In this document: in pieces, positions 2,680 to 30,669 of the stretch
How the letters are laid out: each line of letters opens with the position of its first letter
Numbering within the stretch: the first letter of the stretch is position 1
DNA from: an uncultured Lentisphaeria bacterium
GTDB lineage: Bacteria; Verrucomicrobiota; Lentisphaeria; JABSQK01; JAJFLO01
Reading direction: 5' to 3'
Assembly: GCA_951812855.1 (NCBI GenBank)
Contig: OX638337.1
Location: 480,001-512,000, forward strand
DNA: 32,000 nt
Notes under the pieces: model-generated
The model's input: only the letters and a program-made list of their open reading frames with translations
What the model was told of the DNA's origin: nothing
Database searches by the model: none
Made by a program: the position numbers and the translations under genes

Positions 2680-3411
2680 TTACATACGATCAATTATTTT
2701 TATCAGGCTATGTAATACAAGGTTTGGTTCAACTAAATAATTTGATTTAAATTGATTGGAAATTAATTTTGAATTACCACCCGTCAATACGACATCTAAT
2801 GACTTCTGTAAATGTTTTTCATATTTTCCTATCCAGTTTTCTATGGCTAACACCGTTGAAAAATAGACCCCTTGCACAACAGAATCCTGAAGATTAACAG
2901 GATGATTAAAGACCGTCTCATATCCCGTGAAGGGGAATTCAGATTCAATCTCGATCCTCGTATTTTCAGATACAGCCTTTGCGGAAAGCTGCAAACCCGG
3001 CCAAATAATTGAATACTCACAGCTATTTTCGTTAACCAGAGAAACAGTCGTTGCGGTACCGAACGTTGCAACAACAAATGGCTGTACCAGCATTTCCTTT
3101 GCAGCAATACAGGCAAGTTTTCGATCTATGCCGATATCAAGATCAGCATTGAATCGTATCGTATCATCTGGCAACCAGTCTTGAACATCCAGAACCTGAA
3201 TCTGTCCAGAAGTATTTAATCTGGCACCATCAAAATCCGGCCGAACATTAGAATAGAGGAGTTGTGAAACGTCATAATGTGTCAGTATTTCTTGACAATC
3301 TGCCAGTGAATTACATTCAATTACAGATTTAAGTGTACGTGAATTTACATCAATAATTCCGAGTTTTATTACAGAATTTCCAATATCCAGAACCGCATTT
3401 TTTATAGTCAT
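2680..3411 (-). CDS. coaX: Type III pantothenate kinase (CoaX/Baf family)
   Basis: 243-aa ORF carrying the ordered CoaX motifs LDIGNS, GIDRKLACIAA, FGTATTV, IWPGLQLS, QDSVVQG and LTGGNS. It starts 7 nt after the stop of the upstream PPS-like gene. Confidence 0.85.
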   Translation of the reverse strand: MTIKNAVLDIGNSVIKLGIIDVNSRTLKSVIECNSLADCQEILTHYDVSQLLYSNVRPDFDGARLNTSGQIQVLDVQDWLPDDTIRFNADLDIGIDRKLACIAAKEMLVQPFVVATFGTATTVSLVNENSCEYSIIWPGLQLSAKAVSENTRIEIESEFPFTGYETVFNHPVNLQDSVVQGVYFSTVLAIENWIGKYEKHLQKSLDVVLTGGNSKLISNQFKSNYLVEPNLVLHSLIKIIDRM

Positions 3412-3418
3412 ATAGATT

Positions 3419-4180
3419 TTATCTAAGTGTTGAACGTAATGTTTTCAGTCTATTCTCGATATATTTTAATACTTGATTTCTGCTTTCACGTTTATCATAT
3501 GTCTGTAAAATACTGGTCGCCCGGGCAGGATTTTTATGCAATTCAACCATTGCCTCACTCAGTAACGGCAGTGCCCTGACAACATGATCACAAATATTTA
3601 CAGTCGCATCACAGGCCGTTCGTGAAAGGGGATTTAAATCAATTGATATCACTTTTTTCCCCCAATCCAACAGTGCACAGGTACGATCTCCATCTTCTAA
3701 TGGTATGAGAACAACATCCGCTGCTGCAATCCCATTTTTATCAACATGTGCACGTGCTGATGTCAAATGTGGAACCTTATCAGTCGGTGTAATGCCAAGT
3801 ACGTTTACCGCACCATGTTCTATTAGGAAATTAGCGATTTTTTGTTCTCTTTCACGGGTTCTCCCATAGAAGACATTTACTTCAAGTGGTGCAGGAATTG
3901 CCCTGGATAACTGAACAAGTGATTCGGGAGCTAAAACAGCCGTATTTCCATTAACGGAAATGACGGGATTGTCTGCTTGTACGAGCAATGCTGCAGCGAC
4001 ATTGATATCATTCTTGACACAGGGGATGGATTCTTCACCGAGGATATAGTCGAAGGCCTCACCACGACCATGGGCGATTGGTCCGGCACCGGCAACGAGA
4101 CCCAGGTCCCGATAAGTTTCAATAGTTGAGCGCATTTTAAGTGAATCAGCACGTGGATGGTTTATGGGTATTTCGTTCAC
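3419..4180 (-). CDS. Archaeal-type phosphopantothenate synthetase homolog (4-phosphopantoate--beta-alanine ligase; COG1701/DUF137 family)
   Basis: 253-aa ORF. I recognise the N-terminal signature NHPRADSL...GPIAHGRGEAFDYILGE from archaeal PPS proteins (recalled from memory, not searched). The size fits, and it appears to be co-transcribed with coaX. Confidence 0.72.
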   Translation of the reverse strand: MNEIPINHPRADSLKMRSTIETYRDLGLVAGAGPIAHGRGEAFDYILGEESIPCVKNDINVAAALLVQADNPVISVNGNTAVLAPESLVQLSRAIPAPLEVNVFYGRTREREQKIANFLIEHGAVNVLGITPTDKVPHLTSARAHVDKNGIAAADVVLIPLEDGDRTCALLDWGKKVISIDLNPLSRTACDATVNICDHVVRALPLLSEAMVELHKNPARATSILQTYDKRESRNQVLKYIENRLKTLRSTLR

Positions 4181-19936: not shown

Positions 19937-21556
19937 TTACGACACGCCAGTTAAATCTTTTGCCAGGGCATTCAATTTACCAAGATCAATTTTACCACTT
20001 CCTAACAGCGGAATGGTTTCAACCTCATAAAAATCCATTGGTTTTGGAATCCAAAGGTTAGGGAGTCCCCGATTCCTGAGTTCCGATATGATATCTGTTA
20101 CGGTTATTGTCAGTTTCGTATGAATAACAACTAATTTTTCACCTCGTGCAGCGTCGGGCACAGAGGTAACTGCCAGCCTTGCGTCAGCAGAATTTACGAT
20201 TTCAAAAATAATGTTTTCAACACCGGTATGGGGAACCATTTCACCCGCTATTTTACTAAACCTTGAATACCGTCCTGTTACAAATATATATCCATCATTA
20301 TCGCTTTTAGATATATCCCCTGTATTATACCAGCCGTCACTGATGACGGAATGAGTCAGTTCCGGATTATTTAAATAACCTTTCATAACATTGGGACCAT
20401 GAACCAGCATAAGTCCTTCTTCATTGATTTCCAACTCGTCTTTTGTTTCCGGATCTACAATTTTAATTTTGACACCGGAGAGTGCCCTGCCCACAGATCC
20501 CAATTTCCCACATTTTTTCCCTAAATCTTCTTTCTTTTCCGGTACATTAACCGTTGCCACCGGAGATAATTCTGTAGCACCGAATCCTTCAATGGGATAC
20601 AGATTAAACTTTTCCTGAAATTTTTCTGCAGTAACAGATTGGAGCTTTTCGGCCCCGGCAATGACCAGTCGCAAACTCTTAAACTGTTCCGCTGTACATT
20701 TCTTAATATATCCATTCAGAAACGACGGTGTTGCAAATAATATCGTACACCCATGCTCGGCAATCAATTCACCGATTTTCTTTGACTCAACAGGATTCGG
20801 ATGATAAACAACAGAAATGCCATTGATCAATGGCATTAAAAAATGACCGCAAAATCCAAACGCATGAAAGAATGGGAGATAACCCATTATGACATCATTA
20901 TCATTGATATCCAAAACATCATAAAGTGCTGTCAGGTTTGAAATAATATTCGCGTGCGAAAGTTCAATACCTTTCGGAATCCCGGTTGATCCACTCGAAA
21001 ATAACACAGAAATCGTATTATTTATTGATGCACTGAGTTTCGGGAATAATCGTTTTTTTGCTCTGCCCGGTGTTATCGTTGCAGCAGCAATCAAAGCACA
21101 TAATTTATCAGCTGCCGTGATTGTCTTAACTATATCTTCGAGATATACATATTCTTTTCGATCCGGGAGTTTTGCTTTTTTAACAAAAACTCTGCTGGTT
21201 AAAATCCGACGGATTTTACACTGGTCTATTGCACTTGAAACCGCCTTAAATGATGACGTAAAATTTATATAAACTGGAACCTTATCCGCAAACATTATCG
21301 CTAATCCAGAAACAGCTGAAGGAATCGCTGCCGGCAATATAATTCCAATGTACGATTCATCTCCTTCACTTCTTAACTTACCGGCCAATACATACGCACG
21401 CACCAAAAATTGAAAATTTGATAAAGATGTTCCCTGTGAATCGTTTATTTGCTTTGAAAACAATTTTCCCCGTAACGACAACAGGACCAGTTCGGGTACT
21501 GTTTGATTCTGGGCAATCGTTTGATTTGAAGGATTCTCACTGCTAATATCTGACAT
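19937..21556 (-). CDS. AMP-dependent synthetase/ligase (acyl-CoA or acyl-ACP synthetase, Aas C-terminal-domain-like)
   Basis: 539-aa ORF with the adenylation core motifs FSSGSTGIPKGIELSH, EGFGATE and GWYNTGDISKSDNDGYIFVTGR. Confidence 0.85.
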   Translation of the reverse strand: MSDISSENPSNQTIAQNQTVPELVLLSLRGKLFSKQINDSQGTSLSNFQFLVRAYVLAGKLRSEGDESYIGIILPAAIPSAVSGLAIMFADKVPVYINFTSSFKAVSSAIDQCKIRRILTSRVFVKKAKLPDRKEYVYLEDIVKTITAADKLCALIAAATITPGRAKKRLFPKLSASINNTISVLFSSGSTGIPKGIELSHANIISNLTALYDVLDINDNDVIMGYLPFFHAFGFCGHFLMPLINGISVVYHPNPVESKKIGELIAEHGCTILFATPSFLNGYIKKCTAEQFKSLRLVIAGAEKLQSVTAEKFQEKFNLYPIEGFGATELSPVATVNVPEKKEDLGKKCGKLGSVGRALSGVKIKIVDPETKDELEINEEGLMLVHGPNVMKGYLNNPELTHSVISDGWYNTGDISKSDNDGYIFVTGRYSRFSKIAGEMVPHTGVENIIFEIVNSADARLAVTSVPDAARGEKLVVIHTKLTITVTDIISELRNRGLPNLWIPKPMDFYEVETIPLLGSGKIDLGKLNALAKDLTGVS

Positions 21557-29036: not shown

Positions 29037-29244
29037 CGGGTATATTTTATTTTACTTACAATTATGATTTCCATATTGACTTAGATTAAAAAAAATATAT
29101 GATTAATTTTAGTTTGTACCAGAAAAATCCAATAAATAAACGATATGTCAAATATAGCGAAGTCAGCAGAATTCCTGGAAGTCCGATTCAAGAATCATAT
29201 CAAATCCTGATTGTAAACTCGTGTAACAGATGTCCAATAAATAA

Positions 29245-30407
29245 ATGAATATGCCTAAAATCAGTCTCATTATACCGGTCTGCAATGTTGCCTTATATGT
29301 CAAGCGCTGTATGACAAGCGTCCTGGCACAAAGCCTGACAGATTATGAGGTCATTATCGTTGATGATGGCAGTACCGATGACTCTATTGATATTATCCGC
29401 TCAGTGATTGGCAAAGATCGGCGTTTTCGTATCATCCATCAAGACAATGCCGGGTCGGGTCGGGTCGGGTCGGGTCGGGTCGGGTCGGGTCGGGTCGGGT
29501 CGGGTCGGGTCGGGTCGGGTCGGGTCCCGGTCCGGCCAGAAACACCGGTATTGATGCCGCAACCGCTGACTATATTGCCTTTGTAGACAGCGATGACTGT
29601 ATTCATGAAGACTATCTGCTGGCCTTATATCAGACCATCACCGAACAAGATGCCGATATCTGTTATTGTGATTTTAATATCAGCTTTATAGACCAACCTG
29701 ATCTTGTTTTTAGGACAGTCAGGCAACCGTTATCTACTGGCCGCAATCACTGGCAAGATGTTATTAGCCTTTGGCTTAATGCTGGATTGCATAACTCGGT
29801 TTGTGTCAAGCTTTGCAAGCGCGGTTTATTTACTGACACTCGGTTTCCGTCCGGGTATGCCAATGATATGGTCATCAACATGGCCTTGTTTCTTAAGCAG
29901 CCTGTAATTACCTACTGCCCCCGGGTCTTGTATAACTATCTAAAGTGCTCAAACAGCCTCACAACATCGGCTGTTAATGAGCGAAAAATCATTGACCATC
30001 TGGCCAGATTTAAAGAGATTGAGAAATTACTCAGCAATTACCGCCTCCTGGAAAAATATCAAGATGACTACCGCCTCTACTATCTATTGTCAATCAACGG
30101 CACATTGAGTATAAGCCTGATTGGCAACAGGCAAGGGCACTACCATCAAGCAATAGAGAGGCTATTTGCCTTAGCTGACCCAGAGATTTTTAATGCCCGC
30201 ACTCTAACCAGGCTGATACTTAAAAAAAGGCTTTACTTAAGGCCTGTTCCTTTTATCCGTCATTATGTTGGTTTATATCTCCTGTTTGCTGGCAGTTGGT
30301 CGCTGTACAGACATTATTGCCGGCTAACTTATACAATATATCTCTGGGTTAATGGCAGGACAATCAGACAATTCATATCAAACTTGAGATTTTTTAAGGC
30401 AGGCTGA
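29245..30407 (+). pseudogene. Family-2 (GT-A) glycosyltransferase interrupted by one frameshift inside a pentanucleotide repeat (phase-OFF allele or pseudogene)
   Basis: The N-terminal part, in the reading frame set by the start codon at 29245, is MNMPKISLIIPVCNVALYV...YEVIIVDDGSTDDS...IIHQDNAG. After the repeat, the GT2 sequence continues in the frame set by 29529. It reads GPARNTGIDAATADYIAFVDSDDCIHEDYL... and I verified codon by codon that it stays open through 30407, joining track ORF 29787-30407. Track ORF 29245-29586 ends in out-of-frame sequence. Confidence 0.85.
29451..29526. repeat. Perfect tandem pentanucleotide microsatellite (CGGGT)x15 (75 nt plus 1 nt of a further unit)
   Basis: I counted it directly: 2 units in 29451-29460, 12 units in 29461-29520 and 1 unit in 29521-29525, with no interruptions. 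It is followed by the degenerate sequence CCCGGTCCGGCC. Confidence 0.98.
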
Positions 30408-30417
30408 TTTAAGGACT

Positions 30418-30669
30418 TTATATGCCGAAAAGATTTTGATTAAATTGCCTGATCTGATCTCTAACCGCCGCTGCCTGTTCAAACTCTAAATCATGTGCAT
30501 GCTGATACATTTTTTTCTCCAGTATTTTAAGCCGCTTAGCGGCCTCATGAGGTGGAAGCTCCGGTGCAATGTTGACAGCAGGTATTTTGGGTGATTTTTT
30601 TCGGTTACTTTGACTATGCTGCGGTAAGATGTACAGAAAGTTTACTTGTAACTCTTCTAACCGGAGAAA
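30418..30669 (-). pseudogene. Relic of the 3' end of an excinuclease UvrB gene (UVR domain)
   Basis: My translation gives ...SNRKKSPKIPAVNIAPELPPHEAAKRLKILEKKMYQHAHDLEFEQAAAVRDQIRQFNQNLFGI*. It closely parallels the E. coli UvrB C-terminus as I recall it (...[43 protein letters not shown]...). There is no start codon and no helicase domains, and the frame is closed at 30670-30672. Confidence 0.6.

What the first reader, a model, noticed from the sequence alone, without database searches (positions are those of the whole stretch)
29245..30407. A perfect (CGGGT)x15 microsatellite splits a GT2 glycosyltransferase: candidate slipped-strand ON/OFF switch caught in OFF
A family-2 glycosyltransferase reads cleanly up to ...IIHQDNAG. 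It then enters 15 uninterrupted CGGGT units (29451-29525) and resumes as GPARNTGIDAATADYIAFVDSDD... in a different frame, which stays open to 30407. The repeat is the only lesion. The unit is 5 nt, so every gain or loss of a unit changes the frame. By my count, 77 nt separate the GCC codon (29449-29451) from the GGT codon (29529-29531). The gene is therefore in frame only when the copy number n satisfies 5n+2 = 0 mod 3, that is n = 2, 5, 8, 11, 14 or 17. Fifteen copies is OFF, and losing one unit or gaining two turns it ON. This is the architecture of the simple-sequence contingency loci that drive phase-variable surface glycosylation in host-adapted pathogens. It is unexpected in this otherwise housekeeping, AT-rich context. 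The array has no interruptions, which argues for recent or ongoing slippage rather than an old dead gene.
Basis: partly seen in the sequence, partly recalled or inferred. Interest (0 to 1): 0.75.

Follow-up and report, generated by a model that had tools for sequence, protein, structure and literature searches.

The report
Unstable 5-base repeat splitting a glycosyltransferase gene
A perfect run of fifteen CGGGT units breaks the reading frame of a sugar-transferase gene in an uncultured, probably sponge-associated bacterium; a near-identical strain carries only four units, so the run really is unstable, but both versions seen are switched off, and whether it is a working on/off switch or a gene being lost is open.

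Summary
(CGGGT)x15 lies at 29451-29525, inside a family-2 glycosyltransferase gene (29245-30407, +). It is the only lesion, and the gene is in frame only when n = 2 mod 3, so n=15 is OFF.

New evidence:
- A sister strain, 99.7% identical, carries n=4 at the same site (also OFF). A second contig identical to the window again has n=15. A third haplotype's contig breaks off inside the tract.
- So the tract is real and hypermutable. The 55-nt difference is the largest of five indels in 15.7 kb.

Against a working switch:
- No in-frame allele was found.
- The tract is a lineage-specific insertion in the conserved beta3-alpha3 loop next to the nucleotide-binding motifs.
- That segment is length-invariant in 231 of 233 homologous domains. 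An ON allele would carry 2 to 22 or more extra residues there.

The organism is an uncultured PVC-group bacterium with a ~1.95 Mb genome. Its nearest relative comes from Mycale sponge metagenomes. The tract is also a canonical G-quadruplex motif.

Best reading: a simple-sequence contingency locus caught OFF (about 0.5). The main rival is a slippage-driven pseudogene (about 0.38). It is a new member of a known kind, of moderate interest.

The parts
29245..30407 (+). Family-2 glycosyltransferase gene, split by the repeat. It is monocistronic: divergent from the DUF4202 gene upstream and convergent with small minus-strand ORFs downstream.
   Evidence: Repaired n=2 protein matches PF00535 at E=7e-34, residues 7-129. 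It is colinear with 360-364 aa relatives P0001-P0006. Best solved relative is GalT1, 5HEA, at 1e-34. G+C without the tract is 43%, like neighbouring genes.
29245..29450 (+). 5' segment (frame 1), codons 1-69: beta1-alpha1-beta2-alpha2-beta3 of the GT-A fold, including the DDGSTD nucleotide-binding motif. A second ATG at 29251 is the start chosen by the public gene caller in the sister strain.
   Evidence: Translations. The AF2 model has pLDDT 85-94 for residues 1-60. The 82-aa product called in L001 starts MPKISL.
29451..29525 (+). Perfect (CGGGT)x15 simple-sequence repeat. It encodes (GSGRV)n in all three frames and is also a G3N2 G-quadruplex motif on the sense strand.
   Evidence: TRF score 152, 100% matches; regex check. 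Sister strain L001 has 4 units, L083 has 15, and L002 ends after 13. It is the only G4 motif on the + strand; a G4-aware fold gives three tandem quadruplexes.
29526..29537 (+). Degenerate repeat-like right flank, CCCGGTCCGGCC, encoding P-G-P-A. This is the remnant of the ancestral loop, N-A-G-x-G-P-A-R-N.
   Evidence: Sequence. Relatives read NAG[L/A]GPARN with no insert; GalT1 reads NA-GPSAARN.
29529..30407 (+). 3' segment (frame 0): alpha3, the DSDD (DXD) motif, the acceptor half and a C-terminal helical region, ending at TGA 30405-30407.
   Evidence: Translations; alignment; AF2 secondary structure.
29584..29586 (+). Premature TAG that ends the 113-aa OFF product of the n=15 allele.
29447..29449 (+). 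Internal ATG, 4 nt upstream of the tract. When n = 1 mod 3 it is in frame with the 3' segment. The sister strain (n=4) is annotated with a 301-aa product from it, which lacks beta1-beta3.
   Evidence: P0122, 301 aa.
29076..29103 (+). Sigma-70-like hexamers (TTGACT-16-TATGAT) about 140 nt upstream of the start codon. This is only a candidate promoter.
   Evidence: Six such sites were found in the region against 5.8 expected from shuffles, so this is not evidence of function.

Best explanation
The gene encodes a GT-A-fold family-2 glycosyltransferase, probably a membrane-associated surface-glycan (LPS or oligosaccharide) enzyme, of an uncultured PVC-group bacterium. A perfect pentanucleotide repeat has grown inside the loop between strand beta3 and helix alpha3.

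The unit is 5 nt, so each gain or loss of a unit by slipped-strand mispairing during replication moves the 3' 80% of the gene into another frame. There are three states:
- n = 2 mod 3: one full-length protein, carrying a (GSGRV)-type loop insert.
- n = 0 mod 3 (the window, n=15): a 113-aa stub.
- n = 1 mod 3 (the sister strain, n=4): an 84-aa stub, plus a possible 301-aa fragment initiated at the internal ATG.

The locus therefore behaves as a simple-sequence contingency locus that switches one glycosyltransferase, and so one surface-glycan feature, off and potentially on. Both sampled strains are OFF.

Shown: the tract, the frame rule, the length difference between near-identical strains, and the absence of any other lesion.
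Inferred: that slippage is frequent enough to give mixed populations, that in-frame alleles occur, and that the in-frame enzyme is active.
For: - The tract is perfect and unique in the window.
- The frame rule was verified for n = 0-20.
- Two strains with 0.31% substitution divergence differ by 11 units. This is the largest of only 5 indels in 15.7 kb.
- On a one-step model, that difference implies a tract mutation rate about 4e4 times the per-site substitution rate. If it was a single event the figure is at least 3e2 times (inference).
- A third haplotype's contig breaks off inside the tract.
- The rest of the gene is intact in both strains and keeps all family-invariant residues.
- Gene composition is native.
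- AF2 models the n=14 insert as a disordered loop, with the core on both sides confidently folded.
- The gene is monocistronic, so switching would affect this one function only.
- The closest relatives form a small family of 5-6 paralogues per ~2 Mb genome, with near-identical donor halves and divergent acceptor halves. That pattern fits variable surface glycans.
- The lineage is probably host-associated: the sister species is in Mycale hentscheli sponge metagenomes.
- There are precedents. Haemophilus influenzae has intragenic SSRs in GT2 and other glycosyltransferase genes, and a phase-variable pentanucleotide tract of only 4 units in hsdM (PMC2651432).
Against: - Only OFF alleles were seen (n=4 and n=15). 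ON alleles with n = 2, 5, 8, 11, 14, 17 in both strain backgrounds, and n=20 in the window's background only, are absent from a 15-billion-protein collection. That collection seems to hold only two or three assemblies of this species.
- The tract lies in a conserved catalytic-domain loop. The DGS-to-ARN spacing is 30-31 residues in 231 of 233 homologous domains, with a maximum of 35. ON alleles would have 33 (n=2) to 53 (n=14).
- No second SSR locus was found in the ~39 kb examined.
- No reads were available to test heterogeneity within a population.
- The same haplotype has n=15 in two contigs, so the tract is not wildly unstable.
- The neighbourhood shows ordinary gene decay: a frameshifted cadherin-like gene in the sister strain.
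Confidence: 0.5

Rival explanations
1. Slippage-driven pseudogene. The glycosyltransferase is being lost in a host-restricted, reduced-genome bacterium. A G+C-rich proto-repeat in the loop (CGGGT CCGGT CCGGC) expanded and destroyed the frame. The tract keeps changing length because long perfect repeats are inherently unstable, but no length gives an active enzyme and the variation has no function.
For: - Both alleles are OFF, in the two different wrong frames.
- The insert sits in a length-invariant catalytic loop.
- Even the shortest in-frame allele adds 2 residues there.
- The genome is small (~1.95 Mb), and a neighbouring gene is frameshifted in the sister strain.
- Slippage at G+C-rich repeats is a documented route of gene inactivation in a young symbiont (PMC4948707).
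- No other contingency-type SSR was found in 39 kb.
Against: - There is no second lesion in 1,088 nt in either strain, and all family-invariant residues are kept. The strains are so close that this is weak evidence.
- A neutral dead microsatellite is expected to pick up interruptions and shrink. Here it is perfect at 15 units and perfect at 4.
- With only two alleles, seeing two OFF has a chance probability of about 0.44.
Confidence: 0.38
2. Recoding. The OFF alleles are still partly expressed, because ribosomes or RNA polymerase realign on the periodic, G-quadruplex-forming tract. A shift by one 5-nt unit restores perfect codon-anticodon pairing and, for n=15, the correct frame. On this view the DNA 'frameshift' tunes expression level rather than abolishing it.
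For: - The sense strand is a canonical G3N2 quadruplex motif. The n=15 mRNA is predicted to form three tandem G4s (-96 vs -66 kcal/mol without G4s).
- A +5 nt realignment in the n=15 allele is equivalent to n=14, which is in frame.
Against: - By inspection of the sequence there is no X XXY YYZ slippery heptamer in the tract.
- From background knowledge, transcriptional slippage is known for homopolymers, not for 5-nt units.
- The n=4 allele needs a different shift.
- Nothing here was tested experimentally.
Confidence: 0.04
3. Assembly or sequencing artefact. On this view the tract, or its length, is created by the assembler or by polymerase errors on a structured template.
For: One alternate contig (L002) terminates inside the tract, so the assembler did have trouble there.
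Against: - Two separately assembled contigs agree on exactly 15 units with 100% identical flanks.
- The primary contig of the other strain has a clean 4-unit tract at the same site.
- Contig names suggest a long-read (hifiasm-type) assembly, for which 75 nt is well within a read (inference from names).
Confidence: 0.02

Closest known systems
Intragenic simple-sequence contingency loci in LPS and glycan glycosyltransferase genes of Haemophilus influenzae (lgtC GACA, lic2A CAAT, an R2846 GT2 gene with AGTC x14, pgt1), and likewise in Neisseria and Campylobacter
   Same: - A perfect tandem repeat whose unit is not a multiple of 3 lies inside the ORF of a surface-glycan glycosyltransferase.
- Tract length sets the frame.
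- Copy number differs widely between strains; Table 5 of PMC2651432 shows 5-38 units.
- The gene is otherwise intact.
   Different: - The unit is 5 nt and 80% G+C in a 39% G+C genome.
- The tract is at codon 69, inside a conserved catalytic loop, not just after the start codon.
- No ON allele has been seen.
- The organism is an uncultured PVC-group, probably sponge-associated bacterium, not a vertebrate pathogen.
- No evidence yet of a genome-wide set of such loci.
Pentanucleotide phase variation: (GACGA)n in H. influenzae hsdM; from my own knowledge, (CTCTT)n in Neisseria opa genes
   Same: A 5-nt unit within the coding region, with three frame states of which one is ON. High switching rates were reported even for 4 units of GACGA (PMC2651432), which is relevant to the n=4 allele here.
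   Different: Different gene classes (restriction-modification, adhesins). In opa the repeats lie in the signal-peptide-coding region (own knowledge). Switching has been measured experimentally there, not here.
Slippage-driven gene inactivation at G+C-rich repeats in the nascent symbiont Candidatus Sodalis pierantonius (PMC4948707)
   Same: A host-associated bacterium, a G+C-rich repetitive sequence, replication slippage, and frameshift inactivation of a gene.
   Different: The Sodalis events are mostly deletions between short direct repeats, with a deletion bias. Here a long perfect microsatellite has expanded to 15 units and differs by 11 units between strains.
GalT1 (PDB 5HEA) and WaaH/YibD-like GT2 enzymes (NCBIfam PRK10073)
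   Same: GT-A fold; conserved motifs (DDGSTD, N-x-G...ARN-x-G, DSDD). 5HEA matches at E = 1e-34 over residues 5-221; PRK10073 matches at E = 1e-32.
   Different: The score (113 bits) is far below the PRK10073 equivalog cutoff (423), so specificity cannot be transferred. These enzymes have no insert in the beta3-alpha3 loop.

Membership tests
SSR contingency locus (phase variation by slipped-strand mispairing) | Uninterrupted tandem repeat, with a unit not divisible by 3, inside the ORF or promoter | tested here: met
   (CGGGT)x15, 100% matches, at codon 69 of the ORF.
SSR contingency locus (phase variation by slipped-strand mispairing) | Repeat number alone decides whether a full-length product is encoded | tested here: met
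   Full-length ORF only for n = 2 mod 3, tested for n = 0-20. No other lesion.
SSR contingency locus (phase variation by slipped-strand mispairing) | Repeat number varies between closely related strains | tested here: met
   n=4 in L001 (99.7% identical) against n=15 in the window and L083. L002 has at least 13 and is truncated.
SSR contingency locus (phase variation by slipped-strand mispairing) | Both ON and OFF lengths occur in nature (reversibility) | tested here: inconclusive
   Only two fully resolved alleles, both OFF. Twenty conceptual alleles are not in the protein collection. Sampling is only 2-3 assemblies.
SSR contingency locus (phase variation by slipped-strand mispairing) | High-frequency length heterogeneity within a clonal population | not testable with these tools
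   No reads are available. The only hint is an alternate contig that breaks inside the tract.
SSR contingency locus (phase variation by slipped-strand mispairing) | The ON product is functional | tested here: inconclusive
   AF2 shows the insert as a disordered loop with the core intact. But the loop segment is length-invariant in 231 of 233 homologous domains.
SSR contingency locus (phase variation by slipped-strand mispairing) | Several such loci per genome (SSR over-representation) | tested here: inconclusive
   No other frameshifting SSR in the 32 kb window or in about 7 kb beyond it. That is about 2% of the genome.
Glycosyltransferase family 2 (GT-A fold, PF00535) | Profile match above the curated threshold | tested here: met
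   PF00535: 117.6 bits against a cutoff of 23.3, E = 7e-34.
Glycosyltransferase family 2 (GT-A fold, PF00535) | Nucleotide-sugar and metal-binding motifs (DDGS..., N-x-G...ARN, DXD) | tested here: met
   DDGSTD, NAG...ARNTG and DSDD are all present, at family-invariant columns.
Glycosyltransferase family 2 (GT-A fold, PF00535) | Assignment to a named enzyme (equivalog) | tested here: not met
   Best NCBIfam match is PRK10073 at 113 bits against a cutoff of 423. Donor and acceptor are unknown.
G-quadruplex-forming sequence | At least four G3 runs separated by loops of 1-7 nt | tested here: met
   15 G3 runs with 2-nt loops; the only such motif on the + strand. The G4-aware MFE contains three quadruplexes. 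Formation in vivo was not tested.
Programmed -1 ribosomal frameshift site | Slippery heptamer X XXY YYZ followed by a structure | tested here: not met
   No such heptamer in the tract or its left flank, by inspection of the sequence. Only the downstream structure (G4) is present.

The most novel reading that the evidence does not exclude
This is the first simple-sequence contingency locus in the PVC group and in an animal (sponge) symbiont. A G-quadruplex-forming pentanucleotide tract is planted in a catalytic loop and acts as a three-state switch: full-length enzyme, stub plus an internally initiated C-terminal fragment, or stub only. It varies a surface glycan in response to host or phage pressure. 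The quadruplex itself drives the instability or allows partial read-through of OFF alleles.
Probability: 0.15. Interest if true: 0.7.

Novelty: new member of a known kind. Interest (0 to 1): 0.45.

Why it matters
Phase variation through simple repeats is known almost entirely from a few vertebrate pathogens. A working example in an uncultured PVC-group bacterium living with a sponge would extend the strategy to beneficial or commensal invertebrate symbioses. It would also suggest that surface-glycan bet-hedging, against host recognition or phage, operates there. The locus is directly testable: read-level length counts in existing long-read data would settle it. If it is instead a slippage-made pseudogene, it is a clean snapshot of how a G+C-rich microsatellite can arise in, and kill, a gene in a reduced, A+T-rich genome.

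Tried and rejected
- Exact-sequence look-ups of 20 conceptual alleles found nothing. These were ON n=2-20 and OFF C-terminal products n=7, 13, 16, in both strain backgrounds. Only the n=4 fragments and a 179-aa fragment of the n=15 strain are on record.
- The 113-aa N-terminal stub is not on record, because gene callers did not call it.
- Look-ups of the paralogues P0001, P0002 and P0007 failed, so their loci could not be inspected for repeats.
- Two scans of representative genomes found neither the species nor close relatives. The best hit was 37% identity, in a Gammaproteobacteria MAG.
- A JGI metagenome scan with the left flank found nothing.
- A generic (CGGGT)x5 scan returned at least 120 unrelated loci with n no greater than 9. 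None is related to this gene.
- The syntenic locus in the nearest species (FeoB 83%) and in a 64% relative holds other genes, so the age of the tract could not be dated.
- A look-up meant to recover strain-A sequence for the left half of the window returned only another strain-B contig.
- The homology search did not return the 100%-identical fragments known to be in the collection. Its silence on ON alleles therefore carries little weight.
- Horizontal acquisition was considered and set aside, because gene composition without the tract is 43% G+C, like its neighbours.
- A canonical -1 frameshift site was rejected for lack of a slippery heptamer.

Full report
**Observation.** The window contains one outstanding tandem repeat. 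Tandem Repeats Finder gives period 5, 15.2 copies, 100% matches and score 152 at 29451-29526, while every other array in the 32 kb scores 38 or less. A direct pattern check gives exactly fifteen CGGGT units at 29451-29525. The tract is 80% G+C in a 39.4% G+C window.

The ORF starting at 29245 reads a typical GT2 N-terminus up to IIHQDNAG, enters the tract, and stops at a TAG at 29584-29586 after 113 residues. A different frame reads GPARNTGIDAATADYIAFVDSDD... and stays open to the TGA at 30405-30407. I rebuilt the gene with 0-20 units.

The repaired protein matches PF00535 at 7e-34. It aligns from end to end with 360-364-residue relatives. Its best solved relative is GalT1, 5HEA, at 1e-34. The repeat is the only lesion.

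**Source and relatives.** An exact look-up of the neighbouring DUF4202 protein placed the locus in an ENA metagenome assembly, ERZ18545485, whose contig names suggest a long-read assembler. I recovered four related sequences.
- L001 is part of a 1.94 Mb contig. It is 99.7% identical to the window.
- L002 is an alternate contig. It has one private SNP, at window position 20476.
- L083 is another alternate contig. It is 100% identical to the window over 12,133 nt.
- L210 is 100% identical over 11,227 nt.

A 1,947,381-bp contig, held by both NCBI and ENA, carries proteins identical to the window's. It is presumably the window's own source.

**Taxonomy and habitat.** All named relatives of the window's GltD and FeoB are PVC-group bacteria. 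GltD hits are Kiritimatiellia and Verrucomicrobiota at 66-71%. FeoB hits are Kiritimatiellia, Lentisphaerae and Verrucomicrobia at 56-61%. The nearest other species (FeoB 83%) occurs on contigs from two independent metagenomes of the sponge Mycale hentscheli (PMC7157528, PMC7196800). So the organism is best described as an uncultured, probably sponge-associated PVC bacterium with a ~1.95 Mb genome. I could not link it to a named symbiont.

**The key new result.** At the same site, L001 has four units, L083 has fifteen, and L002 ends inside the tract after thirteen. Over 15.7 kb the two strains differ by 49 substitutions (0.31%) and five indels. The 55-nt tract difference is by far the largest indel. 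Outside the tract the gene differs at 2 of 1,088 positions, one synonymous and one G172C. Neither strain has another frameshift or stop.

On a one-step random-walk model, an 11-unit difference at this divergence implies a tract mutation rate about 4e4 times the per-site substitution rate. If it was a single event, the ratio is still about 3e2 (inference). The tract is therefore real and hypermutable, and the 'assembly artefact' reading can be dismissed.

**What the tract does to the protein.** All close relatives read N-A-G-(L/A)-G-P-A-R-N at this point with no insert. GalT1 reads N-A-G-P-S-A-A-R-N. The tract is thus a lineage-specific insertion between the G and the P of an ancestral NAG-P-GPARN loop, which connects strand beta3 to helix alpha3 beside the nucleotide-binding motifs. 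The right flank, CCCGGTCCGGCC, looks like degenerate units, which suggests a proto-repeat origin (inference).

The tract encodes (GSGRV)n in every frame. In-frame alleles would carry 2 (n=2) to 22 (n=14) extra residues. AlphaFold2 on the conceptual n=14 protein gives pLDDT 85-94 for the core on both sides and about 30 for residues 69-93, a disordered loop. That is compatible with tolerance but does not prove it.

Against tolerance, the spacing from the DGS motif to the ARN motif is 30-31 residues in 231 of 233 domain instances among the 120 nearest homologues. The maximum is 35, against 33-53 here.

There are three coding states. One is the full-length protein (n = 2 mod 3). One is a stub only (n = 0 mod 3, as in the window). 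The third is a stub plus a possible 301-residue fragment from an internal ATG at 29447 (n = 1 mod 3). The sister strain is annotated that way.

**Search for ON alleles.** None was found. Twenty conceptual products, in both strain backgrounds, are absent from the 15-billion-protein collection. A flank search of JGI metagenomes found nothing. Sampling is thin, apparently two or three assemblies. With two resolved alleles, two OFF has a chance probability of about 0.44. The homology search failed to return even the identical fragments that are in the collection, so its silence means little.

**Context.**
- The gene is monocistronic, between a divergent DUF4202 gene with feoAB and convergent small ORFs.
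- The window also holds a GT9 heptosyltransferase and an ArnT/PMT_2-like protein.
- Gene composition without the tract (43% G+C) matches its neighbours.
- The nearest NCBIfam model is the WaaH/YibD-like PRK10073, far below its cutoff. Only 'GT2, probably surface-glycan' is justified.
- The closest homologues (52-57%) are a small family of five or six paralogues on other ~2 Mb contigs. They have nearly identical donor-binding halves and divergent acceptor halves, which hints at glycan diversification. Their loci could not be retrieved.
- The syntenic position in the nearest species holds a different gene, so the age of the tract is unknown.

**An extra property.** On the sense strand, (GGGTC)n is a canonical G3N2 G-quadruplex motif, the only one on the + strand of the window. 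With G4-aware energies the n=15 mRNA is predicted to hold three tandem quadruplexes, at -96 kcal/mol against -66 without. This could contribute to replication slippage or affect translation, but nothing here tests that. There is no slippery heptamer for canonical -1 frameshifting.

In a capped sample of at least 120 metagenomic loci with (CGGGT) of five or more units, none exceeded nine units. None is related to this gene, and the A+T-rich ones lie outside long ORFs. A 15-unit tract inside a bacterial gene is therefore unusual.

**Interpretation.** The mechanism that is essentially shown is slipped-strand length change of an intragenic SSR that sets the reading frame of a glycosyltransferase. 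Whether this is an evolved, reversible switch or a gene being lost by slippage is not settled.

For a switch:
- perfect tracts at both lengths;
- an otherwise intact gene;
- the right gene class;
- a host-associated lineage;
- precedents in H. influenzae, including GT2 genes and a 4-unit pentanucleotide tract with high switching rates (PMC2651432).

For a pseudogene:
- only OFF alleles seen;
- an insert in a length-invariant catalytic loop;
- ordinary decay nearby;
- no second SSR locus in about 39 kb;
- documented slippage-driven inactivation at G+C-rich repeats in a young symbiont (PMC4948707).

I put the contingency-locus reading at about 0.5, the pseudogene at about 0.38, recoding at about 0.04 and artefact at about 0.02.

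**Verdict.** This is a new member of a known kind, an intragenic SSR frameshift locus in a glycosyltransferase. It is notable for its taxon and habitat, its G4-forming pentanucleotide unit and its position in a catalytic loop. Interest is moderate (0.45). It would rise substantially if read-level data showed in-frame alleles.

Noticed in passing
L083 12507-14006; L001 5315-6717 (about 1-2.5 kb beyond the window's right end): A cadherin/Big_9-domain surface protein is one 499-aa ORF in the window's strain but is split into 55 + 425 aa in the sister strain by a 1-nt G indel. The indel is not in an obvious repeat.
   Followed up: partly
L001 5160-5217 (period-21 array); indel at L083 ~14008: A 21-nt indel between the strains falls inside a 21-nt tandem array (2.8 copies), just upstream of the cadherin-like gene. 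This is a second repeat-copy polymorphism next to a surface-protein gene. Another 21-nt indel lies at L083 ~15195.
   Followed up: partly
window 30595-30601: A T7 homopolymer, intergenic and about 190 nt downstream of the GT2 stop, is T8 in the sister strain.
   Followed up: no
window 20476; L002: Alternate contig L002 carries a private C>T SNP and terminates inside the repeat after 13 units. So at least three haplotypes of this species coexist in one sample, and the assembly graph broke at the tract.
   Followed up: partly
proteins P0001-P0007 (ENA contigs of 2,039,669 and 1,980,181 bp): The only close relatives of this GT2 (52-57% identity) are 5-6 paralogues per ~2 Mb genome. Their N-terminal donor halves are almost identical and their C-terminal halves diverge. 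One of them (P0007, 309 aa) is truncated. Their loci could not be retrieved.
   Followed up: partly
window 29408-29435 and 29447-29449: Sigma-70-like hexamers (TTGGCA-16-TATCAT) sit just upstream of the internal ATG that reads into the C-terminal 300 residues when n = 1 mod 3. The number of such sites in the region is no more than chance.
   Followed up: no
window 20485-20515 (- strand): A 9-nt repeat, (AAATGTGGG)x3, lies inside the AMP-binding enzyme gene. It is in frame and is the only G4-type motif on the minus strand. It does not differ between the strains.
   Followed up: no
window 2680-4180 (- strand): An archaeal-type phosphopantothenate synthetase (PF02006, E = 4e-63) lies next to a type III pantothenate kinase. 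This is an unusual CoA-pathway arrangement for a bacterium.
   Followed up: no
L205-L208 (sister species, Mycale hentscheli sponge metagenomes): In the nearest species (FeoB 83%) the gene next to feoA is a G8-domain protein instead of DUF4202 plus GT2. The region beside feoAB is therefore variable between species.
   Followed up: partly
tool behaviour, vs 23: The homology search with the repaired GT2 did not list the 100%-identical fragments (P0122 of 301 aa, P0123 of 179 aa), although exact look-up shows they are in the collection. Negative results from that search should be read with caution.
   Followed up: no
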